Assembly: GCA_964627255.1 (NCBI GenBank) | Contig: CAZVIN010000007.1 | Coordinates: 3,051 to 67,050 of the forward strand | Reading direction: 5' to 3' | Origin: an uncultured Eubacteriales bacterium | Lineage (GTDB): Bacteria; Acidobacteriota; Aminicenantia; Aminicenantales; CALLJL01 | DNA: 64,000 nucleotides | Made by a program: the position numbers and the translations under genes | The notes under the pieces: model-generated | Database searches by the model: none | What the model was told of the DNA's origin: nothing | The model's input: only the letters and a program-made list of their open reading frames with translations | Shown here: positions 5,802-64,000 of the stretch, one piece after another | How the letters are laid out: each line of letters begins with the position of its first letter | Position numbering within the stretch: the stretch's first letter is position 1

Positions 5802-5849
5802 AAGATATTTATTGCCATAGGGCGCAAATTTCGTTAGGAGAATAGTCTA

Positions 5850-6611
5850 ATGTTTGAACTATCGGGAAAGAAGGCGTTAATCACGGGAGGAAGCCGCGGG
5901 ATTGGTCGGGCCACGGCGATTCTTCTGGCCCAAGCCGGCGTGGATGTGGCGATTAATTATGTTCGCAACGACGCCGCGGCTGCAGAAGTTAAAAAAATGA
6001 TAGAAGAATTTGGCCGCCGGGCGTTGACAATTAAAGCTGATATTTCGCATGAAGAAGAGACAAGAGAACTGGTCGAAAAGGTGGTGGCGGAGTGGGGCAG
6101 ACTTGATTATGTCGTCAATAATGCTGGTATCTGGACATATGGAGAGATGGGTCAGATGAGTCGCCAAGTTTGGGAAGAAACGATGCGCCTGAACCTCGAT
6201 GCGGTTTTTTACGTGATCAATGCGGTGGTTCCGTTGATGCGAAAGCAAGGAGGAGGAGTAATTGTCAACGTTTCTTCGACCGCCGCCGTCAGGGGCGAAG
6301 CCTATCATTCCCACTATGCCGCCAGTAAAGGAGCGCTCCATTCCTTGACAAAATCCTTGGCCGTGGAATTAGCTCCCTACGGGATTCGGGTCAATTGTGT
6401 TGCTCCTGGTTGGGTCGATACTGACATGTGTGCGGAGGTTTTTGCTGACCCTGAATTTCGGCGGACGGTCCAGAATTCCATCCCTCTGAAGAGAATCCCC
6501 CCTCCGGAAGACATTGCGGGGCCAATTCTCTTTCTCCTGTCTGATTTAGCCCGTCATATCACCGGTACCGTCATTCATGTCAACGGCGGGTCAGTCCTCT
6601 GCGGAAGTTAG
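5850..6611 (+). CDS. Short-chain dehydrogenase/reductase (FabG-like 3-oxoacyl reductase family)
   Basis: 253 aa. TGGSRGIGRA cofactor motif, NNAG, and the YAASKGAL catalytic YxxxK. Confidence 0.8.
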   Translation: MFELSGKKALITGGSRGIGRATAILLAQAGVDVAINYVRNDAAAAEVKKMIEEFGRRALTIKADISHEEETRELVEKVVAEWGRLDYVVNNAGIWTYGEMGQMSRQVWEETMRLNLDAVFYVINAVVPLMRKQGGGVIVNVSSTAAVRGEAYHSHYAASKGALHSLTKSLAVELAPYGIRVNCVAPGWVDTDMCAEVFADPEFRRTVQNSIPLKRIPPPEDIAGPILFLLSDLARHITGTVIHVNGGSVLCGS

Positions 6612-6667
6612 CTTGCCAAGTTGCTTATTTTTTGATAAGAAGAAAGCATTCCGAAAGGAGGCTTAAA

Positions 6668-6925
6668 ATGGAGGAAGAGATTGGTCGGATAACTCATTAC
6701 TTTTCGCGGCTTGGTGTCGGGGTAGTGGAACTCGTGGCAGGCGAACTTCGGGTGGGGGATACGATTCACATCAAAGGTCATACTACGGATTTCTACCAAA
6801 AGGTGGAGTCGATGCAAGTTGAACACCAGCAAGTGACAGTGGCAAAAAAAGGCGATTCTATCGGTCTCAAAGTAATTGACCAGGTGCGGGAGCATGATAA
6901 AGTCTTCCGCGTCAGCGAAGATTGA
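6668..6925 (+). CDS. Small hypothetical protein resembling the EF-Tu domain-2 / translation-factor beta-barrel fold
   Basis: 85 aa counted from the ATG at 6668, which follows an AAAGGAGG RBS. The ORF track start at 6632 has no RBS. Lies immediately upstream of the acyl-CoA mutase genes. Confidence 0.5.
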   Translation: MEEEIGRITHYFSRLGVGVVELVAGELRVGDTIHIKGHTTDFYQKVESMQVEHQQVTVAKKGDSIGLKVIDQVREHDKVFRVSED

Positions 6926-6981
6926 TTGGGCGTTAATTAATCCTTAGTCTAAAAATCAGGTTTTGGCCTCGAGGAGGAGCC

Positions 6982-8682
6982 ATGAATCGAAGTCAAAGCC
7001 AGCTCAAGAGAAAGCTGAGCGAAGATACCGCCTCACTCCGGTGTGGCCTCCGACGCTGGGAACGGGCCTTTAAAGAAGAGTTTAAGCTCGGCGGCGGCGA
7101 GACAAGTAAGGCTACCTCAATTTCTGGGCGGCCGATTAAAGCTCTTTATACCCCGCTTGATTTGAAAGATTTTGATTTTTGGCGCGAATTAGGGTTTCCG
7201 GGAGAATATCCCTTTACTCGAGGGATTCACCCTACTATGTACCGAGGCCGACTGTGGACGATGCGGCAGTTTTCTGGTTTCGGGTCAGCGGAAGACACCA
7301 ATCGCCGGTTTAAATACCTGTTGTCGTTGGGACAAACCGGGTTGAGTGTGGCCTTTCATTTGCCTACTTTAATGGGGATTGATTCTGACCATCCTCTGGC
7401 TCAGGGCGAGATTGGCAAGTGTGGCGTCGCCATTGATAGCTTGGCGGATATGGAGATTCTCTTTGACGGCATTCCCTTAGACAAAATAACTACTTCCATG
7501 ACCATTAACCCGCCGGCAGCCGTTCTCTGGGCAATGTACATTGCCGTTGCAGAGAAGCAAGGCGTGTCACCGCAGATAATTTCGGGGACGATTCAAAACG
7601 ATATTCTCAAGGAATATATTGCTCAGAAAACCTATGTCTTTCCGCCTCGGCCTTCGATGAAATTGGTCGTCGATACGTTTGAGTACGGAGCCAAAGAGGT
7701 TCCCCGCTGGAATACTATTTCCATCTCTGGATATCACATCAGAGAAGCGGGCGCCACGGCCGTTCAAGAGCTGGCTTTTACCCTTCGGGATGGAATTGAA
7801 TACGTTGAGTGGGCTTTGGAGAGAGGGCTAAAGATAGACGAATTTGCCCCTCGGCTGTCATTTTTTTTCAACGCCCACAATGATTTTTTCGAGGAAATTG
7901 CTAAGTTCAGGGCAGCCAGAAAAATCTGGGCAGAAGTTATGCGCGAAAGGTTCGGTGCCAAAAAAGAGCGTTCGTGGTGGTTGCGCTTTCACACCCAGAC
8001 CTCAGGAGTTTCTCTTATGGCTCAGCAGCCATACAACAATATTATCCGGGTAGCTATCCAGGCCCTCGCCGCTGTGCTTGGTGGTACCCAATCTCTTCAC
8101 ACTAACTCCTTAGATGAGACCTATGCTTTACCCTCAGAACAAGCGGTAACCATTGCTCTTCGAACCCAACAGATAATTGCTTACGAGAGCGGTGTCGCCA
8201 ACACTATTGACCCTCTCGGCGGAAGTTATTATGTCGAAAAATTAACCCAGGAGATGGAAGAGGAGGCCAAGGCATATATAAGGAAAATTGATAATCTCGG
8301 CGGCATGGTCAAGGCCATTGAGCTGGGTTTTCCCCAGAAGGAAATTGCGGACAGCGCTTATTTCTATCAGCAAGCAGTGGAGAAAAAGGAAAAAATTATT
8401 GTGGGAGTCAATGCCTTCGAGATGGAACACGAGCCCATTCCTATCCTGGAGGTTGACCCGGCAGTGGCGGAGCATCAGTTGGGCCGGCTCCGGGAGGTCA
8501 AGAAAACTAGGAACAAGCTTCTGGTCAAGCAATCCTTAGCTGACCTAAAAAAGGCGGCCCAGGACGAGATAAACCTTATGCCCTTTATTCTTAACTGTGT
8601 CCGAGCTTACGCTACGGTTGGCGAGGTCATGGACGCCTTAAAAGAGGTCTACGGGGTTTATGAAGAGCCAACTACCTATTGA
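6982..8682 (+). CDS. Acyl-CoA mutase large (catalytic) subunit, methylmalonyl-CoA mutase family; isobutyryl-CoA mutase-like signature
   Basis: 566 aa, MCM N-terminal TIM-barrel domain. Contains RQFSGF (Phe where MCM has Tyr89) and YIAQKTY (Gln where MCM has Arg207), the IcmA-type pattern. GAGGAGG RBS. Confidence 0.85.
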
Positions 8683-8706
8683 TAAATGAAAGCTCAGGAG
8701 GCCAAG

Positions 8707-9204
8707 ATGAAGGAGAAAAAACGGCCAGGAAGACAAGCCCCGGCAAACCTTGAACCCGGCCGAAGAGCCTGGCCTCCGCATCATCAGCCGAGGCTGAGAG
8801 TCCTTATCGCTAAGCCTGGACTTGACGGCCATGACCGGGGAGCCAAGGTCATTTGTCGGGCGCTGAGGGATGCCGGCATGGAAGTAATATATACTGGACT
8901 CAGACGGACTCCAGAGGAAATCGTTAACGCCGCGATTCAGGAGGATGTGGACCTTATTGGTTTAAGTATTCTCAGCGGCGCCCATAACGTGCTTTTTCCT
9001 CGGATTATGAACTTACTGCGGAAAAGAGGAGCCAGCGATATCCCCGTCATCGCGGGCGGCATTATTCCGGAAAAGGATATCCCCCGGCTGAAAAAAATTG
9101 GGCTGGCTGAAATTTTCCTTCCTGGTACCCCGACTCAGGAGATCATCCAGTGGGTCAGAGAGCATATCCCAGAAAGAAGCAAGAAGAAAGTAATTAGCTC
9201 TTGA
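8707..9204 (+). CDS. Acyl-CoA mutase small subunit (cobalamin-binding domain)
   Basis: B12-binding DxHxxG motif (LDGHDRG) and a Rossmann-like fold. The start is placed at the ATG that follows AGGAGG; the ORF track start at 8686 lacks an RBS. Confidence 0.82.
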
Positions 9205-53000: not shown

Positions 53001-55022
53001 TTATTCGGGTAAAGAAGAAGCTAAGAACTGGGTGAGCTCAAGAGCCGCTAACCCTTCCTTTCCCAGGTCTTTGAGACCATCACGCACCATGGTTAGGCAG
53101 AAAGGACAGGTGGTGATTACCGCCTCAGCTTGAGTGGTGGCTATTTCGTCAGCCCGGATACGGTTAATCCGTTGGCCTAATTTTTCTTCAGTCCACATCA
53201 AACCGCCGCCCGCGCCGCAGCAGAAGCCGTGCTCTTGTCGCCGCGGCAACTCTTTTAGCTTCACTCCTGGGATAGAGCGAAGTAAGTAACGAGGTTCAGC
53301 AATCAAGTGGTGGTGGCGAGCATAATAACAGGAGTCATGTAACGTTATCGGCGTTTCCCTCGTTGTTCCCTTAAAAGAGATTTTGCCTTCGTCGACCAAA
53401 AAAGTTAAAAGTTCTAAATGCGAAACTACCTGAATTCGGCTCAGAAATTCTCTATCGCTGGCGGACATATCGGTAAAAATCGAGAGCAGACGAGGGTACT
53501 CATATTTGAGCGTGTGGTAGCCATGGGGACAGAAGACGAGAATTTTTTTAACTCGATATTGACTGAAAAGCTCGAGATTCTGACGGGCCAGAGCCTGAAA
53601 AAGATATTCGTTGCCTAAGCGACGGGCGGCGTCGCCACAACATTTTTCTTCTTCGCCCAAGATGGCAAAATTCACCCCCGCTTGTCGGAGCAGACGAACC
53701 ATGGCTCTTGAAATTGCCTGACCCAGTTCATCAAAAGAACCAGCGCAGCCAACAAAAAATAGCCACTCCGCCTCAGGATTTTCAGCCAGGCGAGGGACTT
53801 TTTCTTTTTCGGCCCATTCCCCGCGGCGGGAAAAACCAATGCCCCAGGGATTAGCGTTCGTTTCGAGGTGGCGAAAGAAACTGTTGAGTTCAGTCGGGAA
53901 CCGGCTTTCCATCAGAACCTGAGCCTGTCTTAAACCAAAAATCTTGGTCAAATGTTCAATTTCTACCGGGCAAACATGCATGCAAGCCCCACAAGTTGTG
54001 CAGGTCCAAAGCTCGTCGGGCTTTATGACTTCCGGGACTATGGCGGGCAATTTTTCTCGATTTTTCTTATGAATCGGAAAATAAGAGCTGAGCAAATGAC
54101 GTTCGAGGTTATAAATAATCATTTTGGGCGAGAGAGGCTTGCCAGAGAGGAAAGCAGGACAGACATCCTGACATCGGCCGCATTCGATGCAAGCAAAAGC
54201 ATCGAGACAATCTTTCCATGTCAAGTCGAGAGCCTTTTCTATCCCATAGACCTCAGTCTTTTCTAAGTTTATAGGTTCTATTTCACCCGGGCTTGTTTCG
54301 CGGTGAAAAAGCAAGTTAAAGGGACCAGCAAACATGTGAAAATACTTGGAGTGGGGGACATAGGCGATAAAAGCGTAGACAATGACAAGATGAAGCCACC
54401 AGGAAAGATGCAGAAGGGAAGAAGGTTGGTTGGCTGTCGCTCCAGCTCCCAAAAAGAAGCGACTGAGAAAAGGGCCGAGGAAGGAAAAACGAAGTTGTTC
54501 AGGCTGGTGGAGATATTTGCAGGCCTCAAAAAAAAGATAGCTCAGGGTTGTGGCCAGAAGAAAAAAATAGATAATGGCCGAGTCCAGAGCAGAAGTCCTC
54601 AGGGCCCGAGGTCGAAAAAGAAAGCGGCGAAGAGCTAAATAAATTGCTGCCGTAAGAACCACCAGGGCCATAAAATCGATCAGGCCGGAGACGATATCTT
54701 CTGCTAAGCCGTGACCGAAGAGGGAAAAACCGCTGAGAAAACCTTCCAGAGTATGGTTAACCGTCATGGTATCAAAGGTCAGTGCGGCATAAAAGAGGCC
54801 GGCGTGAATTATCCCTGTTCCTAAGCGTTCATTTTTCAAAGTACAGCGCTGGAGAAAAACCAGGCTGAGCACGCGCCAAAAACGACGGCCAAGATTATTT
54901 GTTCTCTCCACCGTTTTGGCGCTGCGGATAATTTGATAGCGGCGATAAACAGGATGGAAGAAGGCGCCGACGGTGATTATAACTAGGAGAGATAGAATAA
55001 TTTTTTCGATAATTGAAAGCAT
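53001..55022 (-). CDS. HdrE/HdrD-like (DsrMK-like) membrane-bound Fe-S oxidoreductase
   Basis: 673 aa. N-terminal approximately 250 aa form a polytopic membrane domain with conserved His (NarI/HdrE-like). Two 4Fe-4S ferredoxin motifs (CIECGRCQDVCP, CTTCGACMHVCP) and two CCG domains (CCGDAARR, CCGAGGG). Confidence 0.8.
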   Translation of the reverse strand: MLSIIEKIILSLLVIITVGAFFHPVYRRYQIIRSAKTVERTNNLGRRFWRVLSLVFLQRCTLKNERLGTGIIHAGLFYAALTFDTMTVNHTLEGFLSGFSLFGHGLAEDIVSGLIDFMALVVLTAAIYLALRRFLFRPRALRTSALDSAIIYFFLLATTLSYLFFEACKYLHQPEQLRFSFLGPFLSRFFLGAGATANQPSSLLHLSWWLHLVIVYAFIAYVPHSKYFHMFAGPFNLLFHRETSPGEIEPINLEKTEVYGIEKALDLTWKDCLDAFACIECGRCQDVCPAFLSGKPLSPKMIIYNLERHLLSSYFPIHKKNREKLPAIVPEVIKPDELWTCTTCGACMHVCPVEIEHLTKIFGLRQAQVLMESRFPTELNSFFRHLETNANPWGIGFSRRGEWAEKEKVPRLAENPEAEWLFFVGCAGSFDELGQAISRAMVRLLRQAGVNFAILGEEEKCCGDAARRLGNEYLFQALARQNLELFSQYRVKKILVFCPHGYHTLKYEYPRLLSIFTDMSASDREFLSRIQVVSHLELLTFLVDEGKISFKGTTRETPITLHDSCYYARHHHLIAEPRYLLRSIPGVKLKELPRRQEHGFCCGAGGGLMWTEEKLGQRINRIRADEIATTQAEAVITTCPFCLTMVRDGLKDLGKEGLAALELTQFLASSLPE

Positions 55023-55033
55023 CCGCCCTCCTC

Positions 55034-55897
55034 TCAGAAGGGGACAGCAATTCCCCAGATAATTTTATGGAATGATTGTTGGTTACCGAGCTGACTCATA
55101 GCTATGTCTTTCCAGAAACCACCTCCTAAGGAAAGCTCTAACCAGCGAGCCACCTTGAGCCGCAAGATCAAGTCGAGGAGAAGGCTCTGGCCCCGGGCCA
55201 AAAGAACAGCGCTCTGGAAAATAGCCTGGAAACTCACGATAGCTTCAGGGGTTAAAGCTACACCCAACCGGGCTCCATACTCTTGTTTGAGCTTTTCTCC
55301 CGAAAAGTCGAGATAGGCTCGCTGGTTGGTGTGGTGAAAAAACCAGATAAAGGGCTCAAATAAAATGCGGTCAGAGGAAAAGCTCAAGCCAAACCCAAAG
55401 TAGTTGCGGTTTAAATAATAAGGTTTTCCATGCTGATAACTTACATGGTCGGAGTCATGGTTGCTGTCGTGGCCGATGATCAGAAGAAAATTCCGGCCGA
55501 TAAATTGCCGAAGCGAAAAATGCCAGTCAAACTTAGTGCGATTATGGCCGTCATCATGGGTAATAAGCTGAGCTAAAAGGGAGGTGCTTCTTGTCAAGTC
55601 CAGATAATTTTGGAAGCCAAAGTTCCAGCGGTCCTCGGGGCCGCTGAGGTCGTTAAAGCTCGGAAAATTGGCCGGCAAAAGAAGCGAGGCAAAAAATTCG
55701 CCTCTGGGGTCAAGCCGGCCGGTTTCAAGTAAGGATATCTTTTCCTGCTGCGGTCGATAAATAAAAATGGGCTGGGCCAGAATATGGGCAGGGATAAAAA
55801 ATAACATAAGCAATAGCCATGTGAGAGGGATAGTGAAGTTAATTTTGAAATTATTGCAATCTAACCTGGAGCCTATTTTTATCATCTTTTCATTCAT
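55034..55897 (-). CDS. His-rich outer membrane beta-barrel protein (hypothetical)
   Basis: Signal peptide and His clusters (HDDGHNRTKFDWHF, GHDSNHDSDHVSYQHG, FFHHTN). C-terminal ...GIAVPF. The 5' end lies within the (AATG)n tract, so the true start may be the downstream Met (MIKIGS). Confidence 0.6.
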   Translation of the reverse strand: MNEKMIKIGSRLDCNNFKINFTIPLTWLLLMLFFIPAHILAQPIFIYRPQQEKISLLETGRLDPRGEFFASLLLPANFPSFNDLSGPEDRWNFGFQNYLDLTRSTSLLAQLITHDDGHNRTKFDWHFSLRQFIGRNFLLIIGHDSNHDSDHVSYQHGKPYYLNRNYFGFGLSFSSDRILFEPFIWFFHHTNQRAYLDFSGEKLKQEYGARLGVALTPEAIVSFQAIFQSAVLLARGQSLLLDLILRLKVARWLELSLGGGFWKDIAMSQLGNQQSFHKIIWGIAVPF

Positions 55898-56161: not shown

Positions 56162-58981
56162 CTAAAATTCAATCTTTAATCCAAGGCGGAAAACCCGCGG
56201 CGACTGGATTTCTGTGGCGAAACGCAAGGGAAATTGCGGCGACGTCCATTCGTTTTCTTCTGTTGCCAAGTGTTGGTTAAAAATATTATATCCTTCGATA
56301 AAAAGCGAGCTTCTTGTGCCTAAAAGGGACCAAGTCTTTTCCAGCCGGAAATCAACGGTCAGGTTGAATTCATAGCGGGCAATGCCCCGTGGGAAAGCTT
56401 GAATGATCACCGGACCCTGTCTTAGGCCGGTGACAATTATTTTCCGGCTAAAGGGCTGGCCGTCGTAGTATTTGAAAATAAAACCAGCCCTAAAATCGGC
56501 TGGAAGAAAAAGGCTAAAACCTAACCGGGCAGTATAGGCTCGGTCAAACCTCAGTCTCCCTCGGGCGTTAACGAGAGAATTGGGGTCATCATAGAGCCAG
56601 CCTATTACGGCCTCGTCATTTTCCCATTCGGTGTTACCTGGACTCGTAGTGCCGAAAGCTTCAGTCGCGGTAAAAGAAAAAAAGAAAATGTGCTTGGTGA
56701 ATCGGCGCAAGACAGTAAGGTCGAGACCACGATAGCGGGAGCTGCGCTCGGTCAAGTTGGGATTGCTCAGCTCAAAAAAATCCCGGCCCAATGCCTGCGG
56801 AAGTCGGTTATAAATGATAAAGCTCAGGTCATCGTGAGTTCCCCAGATGCGGTCATCGCCGCTATCATTGAGCGTGAACGTTTCAAAGGCCGATTCCGGC
56901 ACGCCGATATTTTCCGTTTCCACCAAGTTACGGGTTGTCCGGTGAAAGCCACTTAGCGAAAGATAGAATTCTCGGCTCAGCCTGTAGATAAAACTAACGG
57001 CATATTCGGTCATGACCGGACGGCGAAGGTTAGAATCCAGCCGAGAAAAAAAAGGTCCTTCTCGCCTTAGTAAAGGACCGAGTTCTCCTTCGTCAAATTT
57101 ATAATTTAAATTGCGGTCAAGCCAAGCATAAATCAAGGCTCCTTCGGCTGCGGCGTTTCCCCATCGCAGATAATTAAGAGGAAGACAAAAAGCTGACTGG
57201 CCGAAAAAGAACTTCAGCGAGCCCTTTTTCCCGTCGCTGAAGGGAACAGTTAGGCTGGCCCGAGGCAAAAGGCTGAGCCAGTCAAGGCGCGCCGCCGAGG
57301 TGCTGGTAAACCCGCCCCAACTCCTCTTTGGAGAAGGCGGTTGACTCCAACCTCGAGTCAGAATCAACTTGGCGCCCATGCCAAGAAGAAAGTGGCGCGA
57401 AATTTTCCAACTATCTTCTATATAAAGGCTGATATCAAGGGAGTTGTCTAATTCCCTGGAAACAGGCGCAAAGAACGCTACCAGGGCCGGCTGGCCTTCG
57501 AGAAACAGCAGATGGGTTGAGCCTGGAATCTGAAGCTCTGAGGAATAAAAGCGTCGAGAAACTTCAAGCCCGAAGCTGGCCAAATGGATTGAACCTGACG
57601 GGAAGTTTATCAGCCAATTACCGTTGACTTGAAAATTCAGATGGCCTTGCGTCTCGTCTCCATATCTTAGCGGCGCTTGCCAGACAACTGGGCGAAAGAG
57701 CTCTCGGCAGGGAATTAAAGAAGGACTGACGTAGGGGTCAGATGATATTTTTTGATAGGCTAAACTTAAGCCAGAATGAAAGGAGAGTTGAGCTGAAGGG
57801 AGGGATTGCCAGAATAATTGCGCGACATGAAAATTACGTTGGGCTCTGGTTGTGGCTTCTGGGGCCATTTTTCGTCGCGCCCCCGCTTCTGCCTCGCTGG
57901 CTTGCTGACCTGTCCAAAAAAAACTCAGCTCCCCCCGGGAAGTAGCTTGGTCAAGCCTGATTAGCCCAGAAAGAAGGCGACTTTGATTATGGCCAATATA
58001 ATCAGCTATGTGGCGGCTTAAATCCTGAGAAAAAAAACTGAGATAGAAGCGACGATTTTCAGAAGCCAGAGGACCGGAGAGCCAGAGTCTAAGCTTTCGG
58101 TCGTGAAGAAAAGTATGGGCATCAGTCAGCCCCTCTTTTTCTAAGGCCGGGGTGATGTTGGAGGTTGTCAACCCTGGTTCAATTAGCGTATAGCTTGTCC
58201 CACCCTGAAAGCGGCTGGCACCTCTTTTTGTGGCCATCTCGATCCTTCCTCCAGGGGAAGCGGCTGAAGCCGGATGAAGACTGTTTCGATGACGAATTGC
58301 CTCCACCGTCTGGAGGTCCGGAAGAAAAAGAGGCGTTCCGCCAAAATAGGGCTCGGTAACATTAAACCCGTTAAGGCGAAATTCATTCTGCGTCCAGGAG
58401 GTGGCGCCACGGGCGCTAAATAATGCTGGAGAATCAGCCCAGAGACCTCCAGAGTCAATGCGGTTAGTGGTAGCCGATAAATCCTGGTTTTCGATTATCG
58501 ACCAAAGATTATCGGCTGAGGGAAGGAGCGAAAGCTGGAAGCCGTTAACAACGGTTTGGGCCCCAATATCAGCAAAGTCGTATTTTTCCACTAAGGGTGG
58601 GCGAGTGGAATCAGAAAATTTGAATTCAAGCTGCAGAAACTGAGCTGGTTCAAGCTTTATTTCCTCTTTCCATTCTCTTTTGTTTGCCAGCTTTAGTGTG
58701 AGATTGTAATTCCCTGGGCTTAATCCAAGCCATATTAAATGACCAGCAGAATCAGGACAGCCAACCAACGGCGAGGTCAAGAAAGAAGCTTCGAGCCAGA
58801 CCGTTACTTCCGAGGAGGGCAAGGTTAAGCCCAAAAATTTAAGGTGAAGTGACGAGTTATTCTGAGCCGCCGCTGAAGAGATTAAGCAGAGAACCGATAA
58901 ATGGACGCAAAACCACGCTTGACGAAAAGGCTTTTTCGGACGGGAAAGGCGTCCGTTTGAATTTTTCTTCATATTAAGCAC
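56162..58981 (-). CDS. TonB-dependent receptor with N-terminal carboxypeptidase-regulatory-like domain
   Basis: 939 aa with a signal peptide, a CarbopepD_reg-like N-terminal domain, a plug domain, and a long beta-barrel ending in ...GLKIEF (terminal Phe). Confidence 0.8.
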   Translation of the reverse strand: MLNMKKNSNGRLSRPKKPFRQAWFCVHLSVLCLISSAAAQNNSSLHLKFLGLTLPSSEVTVWLEASFLTSPLVGCPDSAGHLIWLGLSPGNYNLTLKLANKREWKEEIKLEPAQFLQLEFKFSDSTRPPLVEKYDFADIGAQTVVNGFQLSLLPSADNLWSIIENQDLSATTNRIDSGGLWADSPALFSARGATSWTQNEFRLNGFNVTEPYFGGTPLFLPDLQTVEAIRHRNSLHPASAASPGGRIEMATKRGASRFQGGTSYTLIEPGLTTSNITPALEKEGLTDAHTFLHDRKLRLWLSGPLASENRRFYLSFFSQDLSRHIADYIGHNQSRLLSGLIRLDQATSRGELSFFWTGQQASEAEAGARRKMAPEATTRAQRNFHVAQLFWQSLPSAQLSFHSGLSLAYQKISSDPYVSPSLIPCRELFRPVVWQAPLRYGDETQGHLNFQVNGNWLINFPSGSIHLASFGLEVSRRFYSSELQIPGSTHLLFLEGQPALVAFFAPVSRELDNSLDISLYIEDSWKISRHFLLGMGAKLILTRGWSQPPSPKRSWGGFTSTSAARLDWLSLLPRASLTVPFSDGKKGSLKFFFGQSAFCLPLNYLRWGNAAAEGALIYAWLDRNLNYKFDEGELGPLLRREGPFFSRLDSNLRRPVMTEYAVSFIYRLSREFYLSLSGFHRTTRNLVETENIGVPESAFETFTLNDSGDDRIWGTHDDLSFIIYNRLPQALGRDFFELSNPNLTERSSRYRGLDLTVLRRFTKHIFFFSFTATEAFGTTSPGNTEWENDEAVIGWLYDDPNSLVNARGRLRFDRAYTARLGFSLFLPADFRAGFIFKYYDGQPFSRKIIVTGLRQGPVIIQAFPRGIARYEFNLTVDFRLEKTWSLLGTRSSLFIEGYNIFNQHLATEENEWTSPQFPLRFATEIQSPRVFRLGLKIEF

Positions 58982-59174
58982 ACCAAAAGTCGCTCTATTT
59001 TTTCTACTTTAAGCCTGTCCTGTCAAGAAAAGGTTTATTGTTTTGGGCTAATTTTTGGCCGCTCTGGATATATTTCTTTATGAGGACCGCCTGGTGATTC
59101 TCGATATCAATTTGACTCGCTGGCCGAAATGATAAATTATGATTGCCGTTGATTTAAAACGGAGGCCAGAAAAC

Positions 59175-60578
59175 ATGGAGAAGAGAGAAAAAGTTGATAT
59201 AGTCATAATCGGGGCTGGTCCGGGTGGCTATGTGGCCGCTTTGCGCGGGTCTCAGCTAAAAAAGAAAGTGGCGTTAATAGAAGAGGATAAAGTAGGTGGA
59301 ACCTGTACCAATTATGGTTGTATTCCCACTAAATTTCTTCTTCACGAGACGCAGGTTTTAACCGAAGCCAGGCGGTCACCAAGAATAAAAGGAAAAGAAG
59401 TTCTACAGTTTGACTGGGCCGAAGCCCAGAAAACTCGTCAGAGTGTTATTGACCGGTTAGTCAAAGGAATCGAGTTTCTTCTCGAAAAAAATGGGGTGAA
59501 GCTAATTAAAGGTAAAGCCAGGTTTGGGGATAAGCGTCTGATAAGTGTCATTACCCCGGAGGAGGAAATTCTGATTGAGGCCGAAAAAGTTATCCTGGCT
59601 ACTGGAAGTCGGTCCGCTGACTTAAGCTGTCTCCAAGCCGACGGTCGGAAGATATTGACCAGCCGGGAGGCTTTAGAGTTAAAGGAACCGCCGTCGCGCT
59701 TAATCATTATCGGTGCCGGAGCGATAGGCTTAGAAATGGGGTCTATTTTTTCGCGGGTCGGGACAAAGGTTATTATCCTGGAGATTCTACCCAGACTTCT
59801 TCCTGGTTCAGACCGGCAGTTGACTGAGAGGTTAGGTCGGTTTTTGAAACGCCAGGGAATTGAAATCCAGACAGAGATGAGGGTTGAAAAGGCAGAAGTC
59901 GCATCGGGTGGAGTTAAGTTGAGTGGCACCTGTCTTAAGACTAATTCGCCTTTCAGCCTCGAAGCTGACCTGGTTCTTTTAGCCGCCGGCCGGCGACCAA
60001 ATTCAGAAATTGTCAGGGATGTCGATTCCCGTCTCTGTGGCCCGGGTGGTTTTGTCCAAGTCAACCAATTTCTTGAGACAGCCTGGAAAGATGTCTATGC
60101 GGTTGGCGACCTTATTGGCGGGAAATTATTAGCTCATAAAGCCATGCATGAAGGAATCCTGGCGATGGAAAACGCCTCTGGAGCGCAACAGGTTTTAGAA
60201 CCCCAGACCATTCCCCTTGCCGTTTTCACTGACCCCGAACTGGCTGCGGTTGGCTGGACGGAAGAAGAAGCCCAAGAGATGGGGCTACGGCCAAGGGTAG
60301 GCGTTTTTCCGCTGCAGGCGAGCGGCCGAGCTTTAGCCATGGGAAAAACTGAGGGGCTGGTGAAAGTTGTGGCTGACGAAGCTGGCAAGATAGTTGGTGC
60401 CCACATTCTTTCCCCTTCGGCCTCTGAGATGATTGGCGAAATGACCTTGGCGGTACGGTTTGGGCTAAAACTGGAAGATATTGGCCGGACAATTCATGTC
60501 CATCCGACTTTGTCCGAAGCCCTTTCAGAAGTTAGCCTGAAGGCAATGAACCACGCCCTGCATTTGCTCAATGAATAA
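59175..60578 (+). CDS. lpdA: Dihydrolipoyl dehydrogenase
   Basis: FAD motif GAGPGGY, redox disulfide GGTCTNYGCIPTK, NAD motif GAGAIGLE, and C-terminal dimerisation His. ATG at 59175 after GGAGG. Confidence 0.9.
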   Translation: MEKREKVDIVIIGAGPGGYVAALRGSQLKKKVALIEEDKVGGTCTNYGCIPTKFLLHETQVLTEARRSPRIKGKEVLQFDWAEAQKTRQSVIDRLVKGIEFLLEKNGVKLIKGKARFGDKRLISVITPEEEILIEAEKVILATGSRSADLSCLQADGRKILTSREALELKEPPSRLIIIGAGAIGLEMGSIFSRVGTKVIILEILPRLLPGSDRQLTERLGRFLKRQGIEIQTEMRVEKAEVASGGVKLSGTCLKTNSPFSLEADLVLLAAGRRPNSEIVRDVDSRLCGPGGFVQVNQFLETAWKDVYAVGDLIGGKLLAHKAMHEGILAMENASGAQQVLEPQTIPLAVFTDPELAAVGWTEEEAQEMGLRPRVGVFPLQASGRALAMGKTEGLVKVVADEAGKIVGAHILSPSASEMIGEMTLAVRFGLKLEDIGRTIHVHPTLSEALSEVSLKAMNHALHLLNE

Positions 60579-60651
60579 ATTAGGAAACTAATATTTCTCT
60601 TACCTCTGCTGCGGATAAAGCAAGGACTTGGTCGGGATGGCCTCGCTCCCG

Positions 60652-62190
60652 TTAAAGTTTTTCGCGGCGCTTCGTTTTTATTAAATTGTGCACACTTTTC
60701 TCTCTCATTAGCCTTTGGATATCAGCAATTTCTTTCGGCGCGCGGGCGGACAGAATCTCATTTCCGTTTTCAGTGATTAGAATATCATCTTCTATGCGAA
60801 CTCCAAAGCCGGCATAGCGAGCATAGACTGGGGCTACTTTTTTCTGGAAAGCCTCAATTTCAGCTTCCGGCACTTTCCCTTTGAGGGATTCAAGATAGGT
60901 CTCAACCCTTTTTTCAGGGAAGTAGAGGCCTGGTTCCATAGTCATGACCATGCCCGGCTTCATGACAACTTTATCTAAACGCGGTCCGTGCCAACTCCAG
61001 GCATCATGGACATCAAGGCCAATGCCGTGACCAAAGCCGTGTTGAATATAAAGACGTCTCTGCCAGGGACTATTAACATCCGTTACCAGACCCAGCTTTT
61101 CCAGGCCAGCCAGCAGAATTTTTTCCACCTCATCCTGGACGGCTTTAAAGGTGACGCCGGCGACAAGGCGGCGGCAACCTTCTTTTTGGGCTTGCAGCAC
61201 AAGTTCATAAATTTCTCGCTGCTCCTTGGTGAACCGGCCGCTGGCGGGAATGGTGCGGCTGACATCTGACGTGTATCCCCTGATATAAGCCCCAACATCA
61301 AAGACAATCATGTCACGGCCCATTAATTCCCGAGAAGTGGCTCCAAAGTGAATGTTGGTTGAATTGGGACCTGAGGCTACTTGAAGGAAGGATTCCTTAG
61401 TTTCTTGTCGATTAAAAATATATTTGATGATGGCGGCCAGGTCTATTTCCCGCATTCCAGCTTCAGCCGCTCGGTAGGCCTCGTTAAGAGCTTCGGTCGT
61501 TAAATCAACGGCCTTACGCAAAGCTTGAATTTCATCATCGTCCTTGGTCAGACGCATCTCCAGTAAAAGGGGGTCTAAATTAAAAAGGGCTTCGGCTTGG
61601 GCCAAAGGTTGGACTAAACCGAAGGTTCTGGAGAGGAAATCTAAATCGGAAAAGGGGAGGAAAAGCCGGCAGGGCTGATTAGCTGAGGACCGCAGAAAGG
61701 GTGAGAACTCTTCCATAGGCTTGATTATTATCGGCGGGCCTTCTTTGGTTTGAGTTTGACCGGAGGCTTTTTCAAGTAACCTTGATTCTCTGTCTTCTTC
61801 TAAAATTTCTGATGGTCCCGCCAGAGCTGAAGCCGCTCTTGGTCTTGGGGGTTGGGGCCGAAAAAGAATGGCTCTCGGAACTTCTGCTCCTTCTATAACC
61901 AGCACCGCTTCGGGTTCGTGTAGTCCTGTAAGGTAAAAGAAGTTGAGGTTTTCCCTTAGACCCTGGCGGCTCATAAACTGCGAGGGAATTATGACCAGGC
62001 TATTGGGGTGTCTCTCTATTAGTCTGGCCCGGCGGGAAGCATAAAGAGGTGAATCACCTATTTCCCGCGATGGGGTGAGCTGTTCCAGTTGTCGTTTTTC
62101 TCCAAGTTCCTCTGACGATGAAGAGTTTAAAATGCTAAGCGTAAGGATAGAAAATATTATTAATAAAATTGTCTTTTTATATGGAAGCAT
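60652..62190 (-). CDS. M24 family Xaa-Pro aminopeptidase, secreted
   Basis: 512 aa with a signal peptide, an AMP_N-like N-domain carrying an insertion, and a C-terminal pita-bread metal-ligand pattern (D..D..HGFGHGIGLDVHD..E..E). AGGAGG RBS. Confidence 0.82.
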   Translation of the reverse strand: MLPYKKTILLIIFSILTLSILNSSSSEELGEKRQLEQLTPSREIGDSPLYASRRARLIERHPNSLVIIPSQFMSRQGLRENLNFFYLTGLHEPEAVLVIEGAEVPRAILFRPQPPRPRAASALAGPSEILEEDRESRLLEKASGQTQTKEGPPIIIKPMEEFSPFLRSSANQPCRLFLPFSDLDFLSRTFGLVQPLAQAEALFNLDPLLLEMRLTKDDDEIQALRKAVDLTTEALNEAYRAAEAGMREIDLAAIIKYIFNRQETKESFLQVASGPNSTNIHFGATSRELMGRDMIVFDVGAYIRGYTSDVSRTIPASGRFTKEQREIYELVLQAQKEGCRRLVAGVTFKAVQDEVEKILLAGLEKLGLVTDVNSPWQRRLYIQHGFGHGIGLDVHDAWSWHGPRLDKVVMKPGMVMTMEPGLYFPEKRVETYLESLKGKVPEAEIEAFQKKVAPVYARYAGFGVRIEDDILITENGNEILSARAPKEIADIQRLMREKSVHNLIKTKRREKL

Positions 62191-62440
62191 CTTAACAACC
62201 TCCTTTTCCTCTAAATTTATAACCGCGAAGTTTCGATTGACGGAAATATTTTAACTTCATCACTATATTTTTACTTTTCTCCATTATTATCTCAAAAATA
62301 ATTTTTTTCTATTATTTTTTCCTCTTTTCGGGCCAAGCTGTGGGATAAGCTGGCGGTAGCGGAAGTTATTATTAAAGGTTTCAGCTTTTGGCTTCTCGCA
62401 TCAGCCTCCGAGCGAACCTTCAAAGGCCGAGGATGTCTCA

Positions 62441-62466
62441 ATAATAGGTGACAATAATAGGTGACA
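62441..62466. repeat. Tandem direct repeat, 2 copies of 13 bp (ATAATAGGTGACA)
   Basis: Read directly in the 590-bp intergenic region. Candidate operator or regulatory element. Confidence 0.8.
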
Positions 62467-62742
62467 GTTTACATATTTACCTAATTTCATAAAGCGGCGC
62501 AATGGAACAATGAAAAAGGCCCAAAAGGAGGTAGACGGCATCAAGATTGCCTCGATGAACAGGGGGCGAGTTTGCCCGGCTCGGCGAAGGGAGAAGACGA
62601 AACGGCGTGGAAAGCCTTAGTGGGAGCGAGGCGATGCCGGACGTCTCTGGGCCTAACCCGCGGAACAGGGTAGACAAGCAGTTTCCTTTAATAGCGGGTA
62701 AGATAATAGTATGAATAGATTAAGCCGGAAAAAAATCTGGCG

Positions 62743-62772
62743 TTGACGGAGGGATTGACCAGCCTATACAAT
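62743..62772 (+). promoter_or_regulatory. Sigma70-like promoter (TTGACG, 18-bp spacer, TACAAT) abutting the ATG at 62782
   Basis: -35 at 62743-62748 and -10 at 62767-62772. The predicted TSS is about 0-3 nt before the ATG, implying a leaderless mRNA. Confidence 0.45.
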
Positions 62773-62781
62773 GAAAAGCTG

Positions 62782-64000
62782 ATGAAAAAGTTTGAGGTAA
62801 TCTATGAAGCGGGATGGTATAGCCAAGAGCATGACGGCCTTTATCCTTTTCGCTGGATGAGCCGCGAAGCCAGCCTGCGGATAAGTTTACCCGCTGAACC
62901 GGGAAAGAAATTGCTCGTCATCGTCGCCGGCCATTCTTTTGAGGCTGAGGAGCCAGAGCTAAGGGTTTTAATCGCTAATAGAGAAATCGGAAAAAGAAAG
63001 ATTCGAGCTGCCTTCTCTCCTTATTTTTTTCTCTTAGAAGAACAAGGCGAATTCTCCGTGAAATTTATTCTGGACCGGGTTTTCCTGGCCCCTGATGATA
63101 GCCGCCAGCTCGGGGTTATGGTGCGCTCGATTGAGATCATCTGGCTGAGCGAATTGTCAGCGCCATTTTATGCTGAGGGATGGCACGAGTGGGAAAAAGG
63201 TGAATTATTTCCCTTTAGATGGATGGGCCAAGAAGCCAAAATTTATTTGCCTCCTTCCTGGAGAGGAGGCTATTTAGTCCTGCCAATTTCCAGTGAGTAT
63301 TTTAATCAGAAGCAAGTCCTGACGGTTTTTTCAGGAAACAAAGAGTTGGCTAACTGGCCTCTTCTTTATCAGTGGAATACCTATAGTGTGGAGCTTCCTA
63401 GTTACGAACCAGAAAATTGGCTCGAAAATTCCGTTAGAGACGGCAAAAAATTAGTTTCTTCCGTGAGAATAAAAGAATCAGGCGTCGACGAGGCGATCGA
63501 GCTCACTCTTAAATTGAACCGCCTTTTTCCTGAGAGCTATCATCCTGAAGACCGCCGCGAGCTGGGGATAAGGGTGGGCCCGTTAACTTGGCATCAAGAT
63601 AAAGAGAGACATCAAGATATTACCTTTTTCCATCAAAATGCCGTCAAGAATTACCAGGAAATGATGGCGGGGGAGACGATTCTCGCCTCCTTTCCTGTCA
63701 ACCTGGGCATCGACCTTTACGCCCGATGTAATATTTCTCCTCCGTGTGTTTATTGCCTTTATGACCGAATGAAAGACCTCGAAGGCGAAGACAAAGAGAT
63801 CATCGTTGATGACCGAACCTTGGCCAGCTATGGGCCATTCTTTAAGGCCGCTCGCAGTGTGGTTAATTGTTCCTTTGGTGAACCTTTGCTTCATCCCCGT
63901 CTTGAAGAAATTCTGCAGTTTTGTGCTTCGCGCGGGAAAATCGTGGAGCTTTCCACCAACGGTCAGGCTTTTACTCCGCGAACAATTCGGGCTCTCTTGG
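62782..64000 (+). CDS. Radical SAM protein with a novel internally repeated N-terminal domain (partial, runs off the window)
   Basis: Open frame from the ATG at 62782 to the window end (more than 406 codons), not in the supplied ORF track. C-terminal radical SAM core: CNISPPCVYC (CX5CX2C), FGEPLLHP (GGE motif) and ELSTNG (ribose motif). The N-terminal approximately 330 aa carry repeated W-x3-E ... PFRWM ... A modules. Confidence 0.65.
   Translation, partial: MKKFEVIYEAGWYSQEHDGLYPFRWMSREASLRISLPAEPGKKLLVIVAGHSFEAEEPELRVLIANREIGKRKIRAAFSPYFFLLEEQGEFSVKFILDRVFLAPDDSRQLGVMVRSIEIIWLSELSAPFYAEGWHEWEKGELFPFRWMGQEAKIYLPPSWRGGYLVLPISSEYFNQKQVLTVFSGNKELANWPLLYQWNTYSVELPSYEPENWLENSVRDGKKLVSSVRIKESGVDEAIELTLKLNRLFPESYHPEDRRELGIRVGPLTWHQDKERHQDITFFHQNAVKNYQEMMAGETILASFPVNLGIDLYARCNISPPCVYCLYDRMKDLEGEDKEIIVDDRTLASYGPFFKAARSVVNCSFGEPLLHPRLEEILQFCASRGKIVELSTNGQAFTPRTIRALL

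What the first reader, a model, noticed from the sequence alone, without database searches (positions are those of the whole stretch)
62743..64000. Leaderless radical SAM gene with CX5CX2C cluster and a novel repeated N-terminal domain
The ORF (absent from the supplied track because it runs off the window) has a canonical rSAM core (GGE-like FGEPLL and TNG ribose motif), but its Cys triad is CNISPPCVYC rather than CX3CX2C. The core is preceded by about 330 aa containing at least two copies of a module W-x3-E(H)-x5-PFRWM-x-[RQ]EA-x-I-x-LP that I cannot assign to a known family. A near-consensus promoter ends 9 nt before the ATG, implying a leaderless transcript. The substrate and the role of the repeat domain are unknown.
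Basis: partly seen in the sequence, partly recalled or inferred. Interest (0 to 1): 0.55.

Follow-up and report, generated by a model that had tools for sequence, protein, structure and literature searches.

The report
Two-part radical SAM enzyme, sugar-binding-like repeats
The window ends inside a real gene for an uncharacterised radical SAM enzyme found almost only in Acidobacteriota; it has an unusual iron-sulfur motif, two sugar-binding-like domains in front, and an auxiliary iron-sulfur domain encoded by a separate small gene just beyond the window, and its substrate is unknown.

Summary
An open frame runs from 62782 (ATG) off the window end. It encodes two related beta-sandwich modules, a linker helix and the first ~100 residues of a radical SAM (rSAM) core with CNISPPCVYC, FGEPLL and STNG. 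The CX5CX2C spacing is a family trait, seen in 120/120 homologues.

It is a separate, often overlapping downstream ORF in 50/80 related loci, including this clade, and is fused to the rSAM in 30/80.

The TTGACG-18-TACAAT promoter is conserved in orthologous Aminicenantes loci. Its -10 ends 6-22 nt before the start codon, 9 nt here. That implies a very short leader without a Shine-Dalgarno site, not a proven leaderless mRNA.

No curated family reaches its cut-off and no close structural relative exists. I read it as a new architectural variant of the SPASM/twitch rSAM lineage. The substrate is unknown; my tentative guess is an envelope glycoconjugate. Interest is moderate.

The parts
62743..62748 (+). 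-35 hexamer TTGACG of the gene's own sigma-70-type promoter (also the TTG miscalled as start codon in the orthologue L001)
   Evidence: Consensus scan 10/12. TTGAC[AGT]-N17/18-TAnAAT recurs upstream of the orthologous gene in 36/76 loci at >=10/12, against 1.4% of random 160-nt windows.
62767..62772 (+). -10 hexamer TACAAT, ending 9 nt before the ATG
   Evidence: No Shine-Dalgarno-like sequence lies in the 9 nt (gaaaagctg).
62782..64000 (+). Partial CDS (406 codons; about 170 codons missing) of the radical SAM protein
   Evidence: Open frame. 92% identical to the 576-aa P0001 and 233 homologues in total. The start is placed by family N-termini.
62794..63144 (+). Beta-sandwich module 1 (aa 5-121), GWYSQEHDGLYPFRWMSREA ... 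DDSRQLGVMV
63181..63594 (+). Beta-sandwich module 2 (aa 134-271), GWHEWEKGELFPFRWMGQEA ... EDRRELGIRV. Contains a low-confidence inserted loop at about 63394-63495.
   Evidence: This module holds the N-domain's invariant residues and is the one retained in single-module homologues.
63601..63666 (+). Linker helix joining module 2 to the rSAM barrel (aa 274-295)
   Evidence: AF2 secondary structure: H287-308 in P0001 numbering.
63700..64000 (+). First part of the (beta/alpha)6 radical SAM core, cut by the window end
63727..63756 (+). Cluster-binding loop CNISPPCVYC (CX5CX2C)
   Evidence: Read from the sequence. Invariant C329/C335/C338 and P333 in alignment A1. Present in 120/120 homologues.
63865..63891 (+). 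NCSFGEPLL: GGE-type SAM-binding motif with an extra invariant Cys
   Evidence: Invariant N375 C376 S377 G379 E380 P381 L382.
63952..63966 (+). STNGQ ribose-motif strand
   Evidence: N406 G407 Q408 invariant, S404 nearly invariant.

Best explanation
The window holds the 5' 70% of a gene for an uncharacterised radical SAM enzyme. It belongs to the SPASM/twitch branch and is almost confined to Acidobacteriota.

Shown:
- The protein is [CBM6/35-like beta-sandwich]x2, a helix, then a (beta/alpha)6 rSAM core.
- The cluster loop is the usual CN(L/I)xCxYC with a two-residue insertion that includes an invariant Pro, giving CX5CX2C.
- In related loci the core is always followed by a twitch-like Cys domain (C-x16-CC-x36-C-x5-C) with a strongly basic tail.
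- In this clade that domain is a separate ORF of about 130-146 aa, often overlapping the rSAM stop by 4 nt. In other classes it is fused through a low-complexity linker.
- The gene has its own conserved near-consensus sigma-70 promoter.

Inferred:
- Transcription starts 0-4 nt before the ATG, so translation is leaderless or nearly so, without a Shine-Dalgarno site.
- The CX5CX2C cluster cleaves SAM to a 5'-deoxyadenosyl radical, which abstracts hydrogen from a substrate held by module 2.
- The small subunit docks on the barrel and supplies one auxiliary [4Fe-4S] cluster for electron transfer, as in BtrN or anSME.
- The substrate is probably a sugar-containing envelope precursor. This last step is the weakest, at about 0.3.
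For: Family and architecture:
- 233 homologues and 101 species-level genome hits, nearly all Aminicenantes, Vicinamibacterales, Thermoanaerobaculia or Holophagales.
- AF2 model of the orthologue: pLDDT 89.7, pTM 0.87.
- CX5CX2C in 120/120 homologues.

Twitch partner:
- Twitch-like coding sequence lies directly downstream in 85/86 loci; the one exception ends at a contig edge.
- It is separate in 50 and fused in 30 of 80 non-redundant loci. Fused examples are P0261, P0312, P0270, P0243 and P0275.
- Four Cys columns are 100% conserved and a fifth is 95% conserved.
- It gives a weak SPASM hit and matches the N-terminal twitch of NF033640.

Promoter: conserved in orthologues.

Glycan lean:
- CBM-like fold.
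- The same module sits C-terminal to PMT_2 GT-C glycosyltransferases and in a sulfatase-family protein and lipoproteins.
- Sulfatase-family (alkaline-phosphatase superfamily) genes directly follow the pair in 28 Aminicenantes loci (convergent) and in 3 Vicinamibacterales loci (co-directional). In L088 they sit in an overlapping operon.
Against: - No biochemical data exist, and no curated family reaches its cut-off. The best is TIGR04317 at 68 bits against a cut-off of 380.
- Only the rSAM/twitch pair is conserved across all clades. Other neighbours differ by lineage and may reflect synteny alone.
- CBM-like jelly rolls also serve protein binding, and rSAM enzymes are cytoplasmic, whereas most proteins carrying this module look extracytoplasmic.
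- The twitch gene and the last ~170 codons are not in the window, so their presence here is extrapolated from L001 (90% DNA identity).
- No complex model and no transcription start data were obtainable.
Confidence: 0.6

Rival explanations
1. It is a protein maturase, analogous to anaerobic sulfatase-maturating enzyme. The rSAM/twitch pair would modify the adjacent sulfatase-family (alkaline-phosphatase superfamily) proteins before export, and the beta-sandwich modules would grip the substrate polypeptide.
Against: The neighbouring proteins lack the C/S-x-P-x-R formylglycine motif. The Aminicenantes ones have T-L-P-S-H at that position. About 60% of loci have no such neighbour. In Aminicenantes the genes are convergent, not co-transcribed. 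Similarity to anSME is no greater than to many other rSAMs.
Confidence: 0.12
2. It is a peptide (RiPP) maturase. The N-terminal modules would replace the usual RRE leader-binding domain, and the rSAM/twitch pair would cross-link or epimerise a small precursor peptide.
Against: No conserved short ORF other than the twitch gene lies next to the pair in 80 loci. The upstream spacer in close orthologues is only about 180-220 nt and is taken up by the promoter. There is no RRE and there are no transporter or protease neighbours. The gene looks single-copy and vertically inherited across four classes.
Confidence: 0.08
3. It acts in lipoyl/glycine-cleavage metabolism or on another housekeeping cofactor or RNA. 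The basic tail of the small subunit would bind an acidic partner or nucleic acid.
For: - Dihydrolipoyl dehydrogenase (TIGR01350, 470 bits) lies directly upstream on the same strand in 25 Aminicenantes loci.
- gcvT-gcvH-gcvPA lies directly downstream in 7 Thermoanaerobaculia-like loci.
- The only PDB sequence-level hit is TYW1, at E about 4e-5.
- The tail has a net charge of about +10.
Against: In this window a 1955-bp insertion carrying an M24 peptidase gene separates lpd from the rSAM gene. The rSAM gene has its own promoter. The two associations could be lineage-specific synteny. There is no similarity to LipA or LipS beyond the generic fold. The TYW1 match covers only about 80 generic core residues.
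Confidence: 0.1
4. The non-canonical triad marks a catalytically dead 'pseudo-SAM' protein that keeps only a structural or binding role.
For: The spacing departs from CX3CX2C. NCBIfam gives weak hits to a pseudo-SAM/SPASM family.
Against: All three Cys, the GGE-type motif and the TNG ribose motif are invariant over sequences as little as 35-40% identical. CX4-CX11 spacings, including CX5CX2C in HcgA, occur in active rSAM groups (PMC9477430, PMC10100467).
Confidence: 0.05

Closest known systems
SPASM/twitch-domain radical SAM enzymes (SFLD subgroup 17; e.g. BtrN, anSME, SuiB, MoaA-like cores)
   Same: Same (beta/alpha)6 core, CN(L/I)x..CxYC-type loop, GGEPLL-type and TNG motifs, and a Cys-rich hairpin domain after the barrel that starts C-x12-G-x3-C.
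   Different: - The triad is CX5CX2C, with an invariant Pro in the insertion.
- The auxiliary domain has only 4-5 conserved Cys and scores below the SPASM gathering score.
- That domain is a separate polypeptide in this clade and is joined by a long linker elsewhere.
- One to four CBM-like modules precede the core.
- No curated model reaches its cut-off.
NF033640 N_Twi_rSAM (radical SAM proteins with an N-terminal twitch domain)
   Same: The small downstream protein aligns to the twitch part (profile positions 2-66, E 2e-5 to 8e-4). The core gives weak hits to the rSAM part.
   Different: Scores of 16-43 bits fall far below the cut-off of 170. The domain order is the reverse (twitch after the core, or on its own), and N_Twi_rSAM has no CBM-like modules.
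HcgA/HmdB and RadicalSAM.org Megacluster-4-10 (CX5CX2C radical SAM enzymes)
   Same: Same Cys spacing in the SAM cluster motif (PMC10100467, PMC9477430).
   Different: No HcgA/HmdB model appears among the fully listed NCBIfam hits of the window fragment or of P0048. The architecture and taxonomic range also differ. The shared spacing looks convergent.
CBM6/CBM35 carbohydrate-binding modules and the BcsB jelly-roll domains
   Different: Only 7-18% identity and no sequence-level match to any Pfam, NCBIfam or PDB entry. The module sits in a cytoplasmic enzyme. Sugar binding is untested.

Membership tests
Radical SAM superfamily (PF04055) | Three Cys in one loop that ligate the SAM-binding [4Fe-4S] cluster (canonically CX3CX2C) | tested here: met
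   Three invariant Cys in one loop, with CX5CX2C spacing rather than CX3CX2C. Variant spacings are accepted within the superfamily (PMC9477430). Cluster binding itself was not tested.
Radical SAM superfamily (PF04055) | Profile score above the Pfam gathering score | tested here: met
   The truncated window fragment scores 24.4 against 29.5. The 92%-identical full-length orthologue P0001 scores 44.2.
Radical SAM superfamily (PF04055) | Partial (beta/alpha)6 TIM barrel with GGE and ribose motifs | tested here: met
SPASM domain rSAM (PF13186 / TIGR04085) | Seven-Cys motif CX9-15GX4C ... CX2CX5CX3C ... C binding two auxiliary clusters, C-terminal in the same chain | tested here: not met
   The partner domain has C-x16-CC-x36-C-x5-C only. 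PF13186 scores 14-17 bits against a gathering score of 21.5. It is a separate ORF in this clade.
Twitch-domain rSAM | Truncated SPASM-like hairpin domain with 3-4 Cys for one auxiliary cluster | tested here: inconclusive
   The pattern and the NF033640 twitch alignment fit, and fusion forms prove linkage. Cluster binding, and the domain's presence beyond 64000 in this genome, could not be tested.
Anaerobic sulfatase-maturating enzyme (anSME) | Partner sulfatase with the C/S-x-P/A-x-R formylglycine motif | tested here: not met
   The neighbouring sulfatase-family proteins lack the motif, and the Aminicenantes ones have TLPSH at that position. No anSME model appears among the NCBIfam hits that were listed.
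HcgA/HmdB | Sequence membership in the HcgA family, in an hcg/hmd gene context | tested here: not met
   Only the CX5CX2C spacing is shared. There is no family hit and no hcg genes nearby.
RiPP rSAM maturases | RRE/leader-binding domain and an adjacent precursor peptide gene | tested here: not met
   The N-terminus is a beta-sandwich, not a winged-helix RRE. No conserved short ORF besides the twitch gene was found.
CBM6/CBM35 | Beta-jelly-roll fold | tested here: met
CBM6/CBM35 | Sequence-family membership and demonstrated glycan binding | not testable with these tools
   There is no Pfam or PDB sequence match. Binding needs experiments.
Leaderless mRNA | Transcription start at (or within a few nt of) the A of the start codon; -10 TANNNT beginning about 12 nt upstream of the start | tested here: inconclusive
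   The promoter is conserved. The -10 begins at -15 here, with 9 nt between the hexamer and the ATG, and orthologues range from 6 to 22 nt. The criterion comes from PMC3160421. No transcription start data are available.

The most novel reading that the evidence does not exclude
The rSAM/twitch pair is the first radical SAM enzyme that uses built-in carbohydrate-binding-type modules to aim radical chemistry at a glycan or glycolipid, with its auxiliary Fe-S domain supplied in trans. Alternatively, it is a new kind of maturase for the formylglycine-less sulfatase-family enzymes encoded next to it. Either would be a new reaction class specific to Acidobacteriota envelopes.
Probability: 0.12. Interest if true: 0.7.

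Novelty: new variant of a known kind. Interest (0 to 1): 0.42.

Why it matters
Radical SAM enzymes are a huge, mostly uncharacterised superfamily, and new domain combinations often mean new chemistry. This family is conserved across four classes of Acidobacteriota, an abundant and poorly cultured phylum. It combines three uncommon traits:
- a widened cluster loop;
- tandem CBM-like modules on a cytoplasmic radical enzyme, for which a literature search found no precedent;
- an auxiliary-cluster domain that has been split off as its own subunit in one clade and is fused in others.

The split and fused forms are a natural test of how twitch domains dock on rSAM barrels. The conserved promoter placed right against the start codon is a useful case for translation initiation in this phylum. 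If the substrate turns out to be an ordinary one, this is simply one more orphan rSAM family.

Tried and rejected
- anSME-type sulfatase maturase: rejected as a membership claim because the neighbouring sulfatase-family proteins have no C/SxPxR motif. Kept as a low-probability rival.
- HcgA/HmdB relationship through CX5CX2C: only the spacing is shared.
- RiPP maturase: no precursor ORF and no RRE.
- Antiviral viperin (pVip): only weak partial PADLOC hits to the generic core, 25-37 bits.
- Riboswitch or other RNA element upstream: Rfam finds nothing credible in 62100-64000, only a below-threshold snoRNA hit at E 0.15. The promoter position leaves no room for a leader element.
- Frameshift or two-gene reading of the N-terminal region: rejected.
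- TTG 62743 as the start codon: rejected in favour of ATG 62782.
- Sequence search of the N-domain against the PDB: nothing.
- AFDB Foldseek search: the library was unavailable.
- Neighbour clustering in high-GC loci was noisy because of spurious ORFs. Apart from lpd, sulfatase-like genes and gcvTHP in subsets of loci, it showed no neighbour conserved across all clades.
- NCBIfam scans of the sulfatase-like neighbours, the two unknown L088 operon genes and the module-bearing lipoprotein gave nothing above cut-off.

Full report
**Observation**

The frame that opens at 62743 has no stop codon up to the window end. Homologues begin 8-12 residues before the first GW motif. In most orthologous loci the start codon lies exactly 10 codons before that motif, which matches ATG 62782. 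The TTG at 62743 is the -35 hexamer of a promoter, although a gene caller used it as the start in the 92%-identical orthologue P0001.

The translated fragment gives a sub-threshold Radical_SAM hit only because it is truncated: 24.4 bits against a gathering score of 29.5. The full-length orthologue scores 44.2.
- CNISPPCVYC at 63727-63756;
- NCSFGEPLL at 63865-63891;
- STNGQ at 63952-63966.

**The family**

A search of 5.8 billion proteins found 233 homologues of 520-710 aa. Where a source names them, they are mostly from Candidatus Aminicenantes and other Acidobacteriota MAGs. A scan of one genome per species found 101 species with the gene. Nearly all are Aminicenantes, Vicinamibacterales, Thermoanaerobaculia or Holophagales, with a few Opitutaceae and Gemmatimonadota MAGs.

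In a 64-sequence alignment the invariant residues include C329, C335, C338 and P333 (P0001 numbering), the NCSxGEPL stretch and NGQ. All of the 120 best homologues have CN[IMVL]xPxC[VS]YC. The CX5CX2C spacing is therefore a fixed family trait. It reads as the common CN(L/I)xCxYC loop of SPASM-type enzymes with a two-residue insertion that includes an invariant Pro.

The spacing is not unprecedented. HcgA and RadicalSAM.org Megacluster-4-10 have it, and CX4 to CX11 variants are catalogued (PMC10100467, PMC9477430).

**Structure**

AlphaFold2 on the orthologue with the family alignment gave pLDDT 89.7 and pTM 0.87. The model has:
- two beta-sandwiches (residues 18-134 and 147-284);
- a helix (287-308);
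- a complete (beta/alpha)6 core (320-551).

**The N-terminal repeat**

The family is rare. phmmer against 1.84 billion cluster representatives found 92 proteins at E<=1e-3. It is not restricted to this enzyme. The same module occurs in:
- four PMT_2 (GT-C) glycosyltransferases, C-terminal to the catalytic domain;
- a sulfatase-family protein;
- a WD40 protein;
- a different, canonical CX3CX2C rSAM/SPASM protein with a CapK-like N-terminus;
- lipoproteins of about 288 aa encoded near some loci.

Module 2 carries the invariant residues and is the one kept in single-module homologues. It is therefore probably the functionally essential copy.

**The missing partner**

Directly after every homologue lies a sequence that encodes LCREPWxSYYILRRGILPCC...AWNSP.LQEIR...YCL.SL.CPIVQ followed by a basic tail. 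It was found in 85 of 86 loci, and the exception stops at a contig end.

It has four Cys columns at 100% conservation and one at 95%, in the pattern C-x16-CC-x36-C-x5-C. It gives a sub-threshold SPASM hit of 14-17 bits. It aligns to the N-terminal twitch domain of NF033640 with E from 2e-5 to 8e-4.

In 50 of 80 non-redundant loci it is a separate ORF, commonly overlapping the rSAM stop by 4 nt or starting within about 20 nt. These are the Aminicenantes, which include the window's clade, and some Vicinamibacterales. In the other 30 (Thermoanaerobaculia, Holophagales and others) it is in frame with the rSAM and joined by a low-complexity Pro/Ala/Glu linker. A profile of the small protein finds 412 relatives, and the best 120 are all stand-alone proteins of 120-162 aa.

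The fused forms are Rosetta-stone evidence that the two polypeptides work together. In the window this gene would lie roughly 0.5-0.7 kb past the end. The closest locus, L001, is 90% identical in DNA over 62564-64000.

The tail has a median net charge of +10.5 and is moderately amphipathic: muH 0.67 against 0.49 for shuffled tails, which is not beyond the 95th percentile of 0.72. It could bind membrane, nucleic acid or an acidic partner.

**Promoter and leader**

TTGACG-18-TACAAT matches 10 of 12 consensus positions. It is the only such site in the window with a start codon within 10 nt.

A match of 10/12 or better sits in the same place in 36 of 76 related loci, essentially the Aminicenantes. 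Only 1.4% of random 160-nt windows from the same loci score this well. The -10 ends 6-22 nt before the start codon, with a median of about 13. The promoter is therefore real and conserved, and the 5' UTR is very short and lacks a Shine-Dalgarno sequence. Another gene in the window has a normal AAGGAGG leader.

Typical bacterial leaderless genes have the TANNNT starting about 12 nt upstream of the start codon (PMC3160421). Here it starts at -15. The transcript probably has a leader of 0-4 nt. 'Leaderless' is plausible but not shown.

**Function**

Only the rSAM/twitch pair is conserved throughout the family. Three lineage-restricted neighbours recur:
- Dihydrolipoyl dehydrogenase lies upstream on the same strand in 25 Aminicenantes loci (TIGR01350, 470 bits).
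- gcvT-gcvH-gcvPA lies downstream in 7 Thermoanaerobaculia-like loci.
- Sulfatase-family genes lie directly after the pair in 28 Aminicenantes loci (convergent) and in 3 Vicinamibacterales loci (co-directional). In L088 they form an overlapping operon: rSAM, twitch, sulfatase-like, sulfatase-like.

These sulfatase-family proteins lack the formylglycine motif; the Aminicenantes ones have TLPSH at that position. A classical anSME role is therefore excluded. In the window itself a 1955-bp insertion carrying an M24 peptidase gene separates lpd from the rSAM gene, which weakens the lpd link.

My best guess is a sugar-containing envelope precursor as the substrate, at a probability of about 0.3. It rests on the CBM-like fold, on the module's occurrence in GT-C glycosyltransferases and sulfatase-family envelope enzymes, and on the recurring sulfatase-family neighbours. 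The chemistry is inferred from the superfamily and was not tested here: SAM cleavage at the CX5CX2C cluster, hydrogen abstraction, and electron handling by one auxiliary cluster on the small subunit.

**Verdict**

It is a new architectural variant within the SPASM/twitch radical SAM lineage and belongs to no characterised family. The new information is:
- the split, trans-encoded twitch subunit;
- the CBM-like nature and wider distribution of the repeat;
- the comparative support for the promoter.

The function remains open.

Noticed in passing
window 60609-62563: Relative to the closest locus L001 (89-90% DNA identity on both sides), and also relative to L005, the window carries an extra ~1955 bp between lpd and the rSAM gene. 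The extra segment holds a minus-strand M24/aminopeptidase P-like gene (60652-62190).
   Followed up: partly
window 62440-62465: A perfect tandem duplication of the 13-mer AATAATAGGTGAC lies inside the inserted segment. It is about 250 nt upstream of the M24 peptidase start and about 280 nt upstream of the rSAM promoter. It may be an operator or an insertion scar.
   Followed up: no
window 59139-60578; L058, L059, L067, L069, L070 about 5800-9150: Glycine-cleavage/lipoamide genes flank the rSAM gene in two different classes: lpd upstream in 25 Aminicenantes loci, and gcvT-gcvH-gcvPA downstream in 7 Thermoanaerobaculia-like loci. This could be chance synteny or a functional link.
   Followed up: partly
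L001 7659-9281 (-); L088 12501-16650 (+): Sulfatase-family (alkaline-phosphatase superfamily) genes without a formylglycine motif directly follow the rSAM/twitch pair in 31 non-redundant loci. In L088 two multi-TM paralogues overlap the twitch gene's stop in an apparent operon, followed by a DACNV-domain gene and an unknown 402-aa gene.
   Followed up: partly
L002 13794-14657 (-); L029 286-1149 (-); L032 300-1163 (-): Lipoproteins of about 288 aa (signal peptide plus lipobox Cys) carry one copy of the same GWY..E...RW module at their C-terminus, a few kb from the rSAM gene. The module therefore also works outside the cytoplasm in these organisms.
   Followed up: partly
P0263 (1365 aa): An unrelated architecture reuses the module: a CapK/PaaK-like adenylating domain, three or four module copies, then a canonical CX3CX2C rSAM with a Cys-rich C-terminus. 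It is a second, independent rSAM-plus-CBM-like combination.
   Followed up: no
L087 12717-19846: In a Vicinamibacterales genome a phage-type integrase gene sits immediately after the twitch gene. It is followed by an island that contains DncV-like nucleotidyltransferase and SAVED genes (CBASS-like defence).
   Followed up: no
window 25575 (-) and downstream: A TTGACA-18-TAAAAT promoter-like site is followed 32 nt later by an ATG preceded by AAGGAGG. This genome does use ordinary Shine-Dalgarno leaders, which makes the leader-poor rSAM gene stand out.
   Followed up: no
window 55034-55897 (-) and 56162-58981 (-): A 287-aa ORF with no Pfam or NCBIfam match and a 939-aa outer-membrane beta-barrel-like ORF form a block with an HdrD/CCG-type Fe-S protein gene (53001-55022). 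The block is syntenic in L005 and L002. Function unknown.
   Followed up: no
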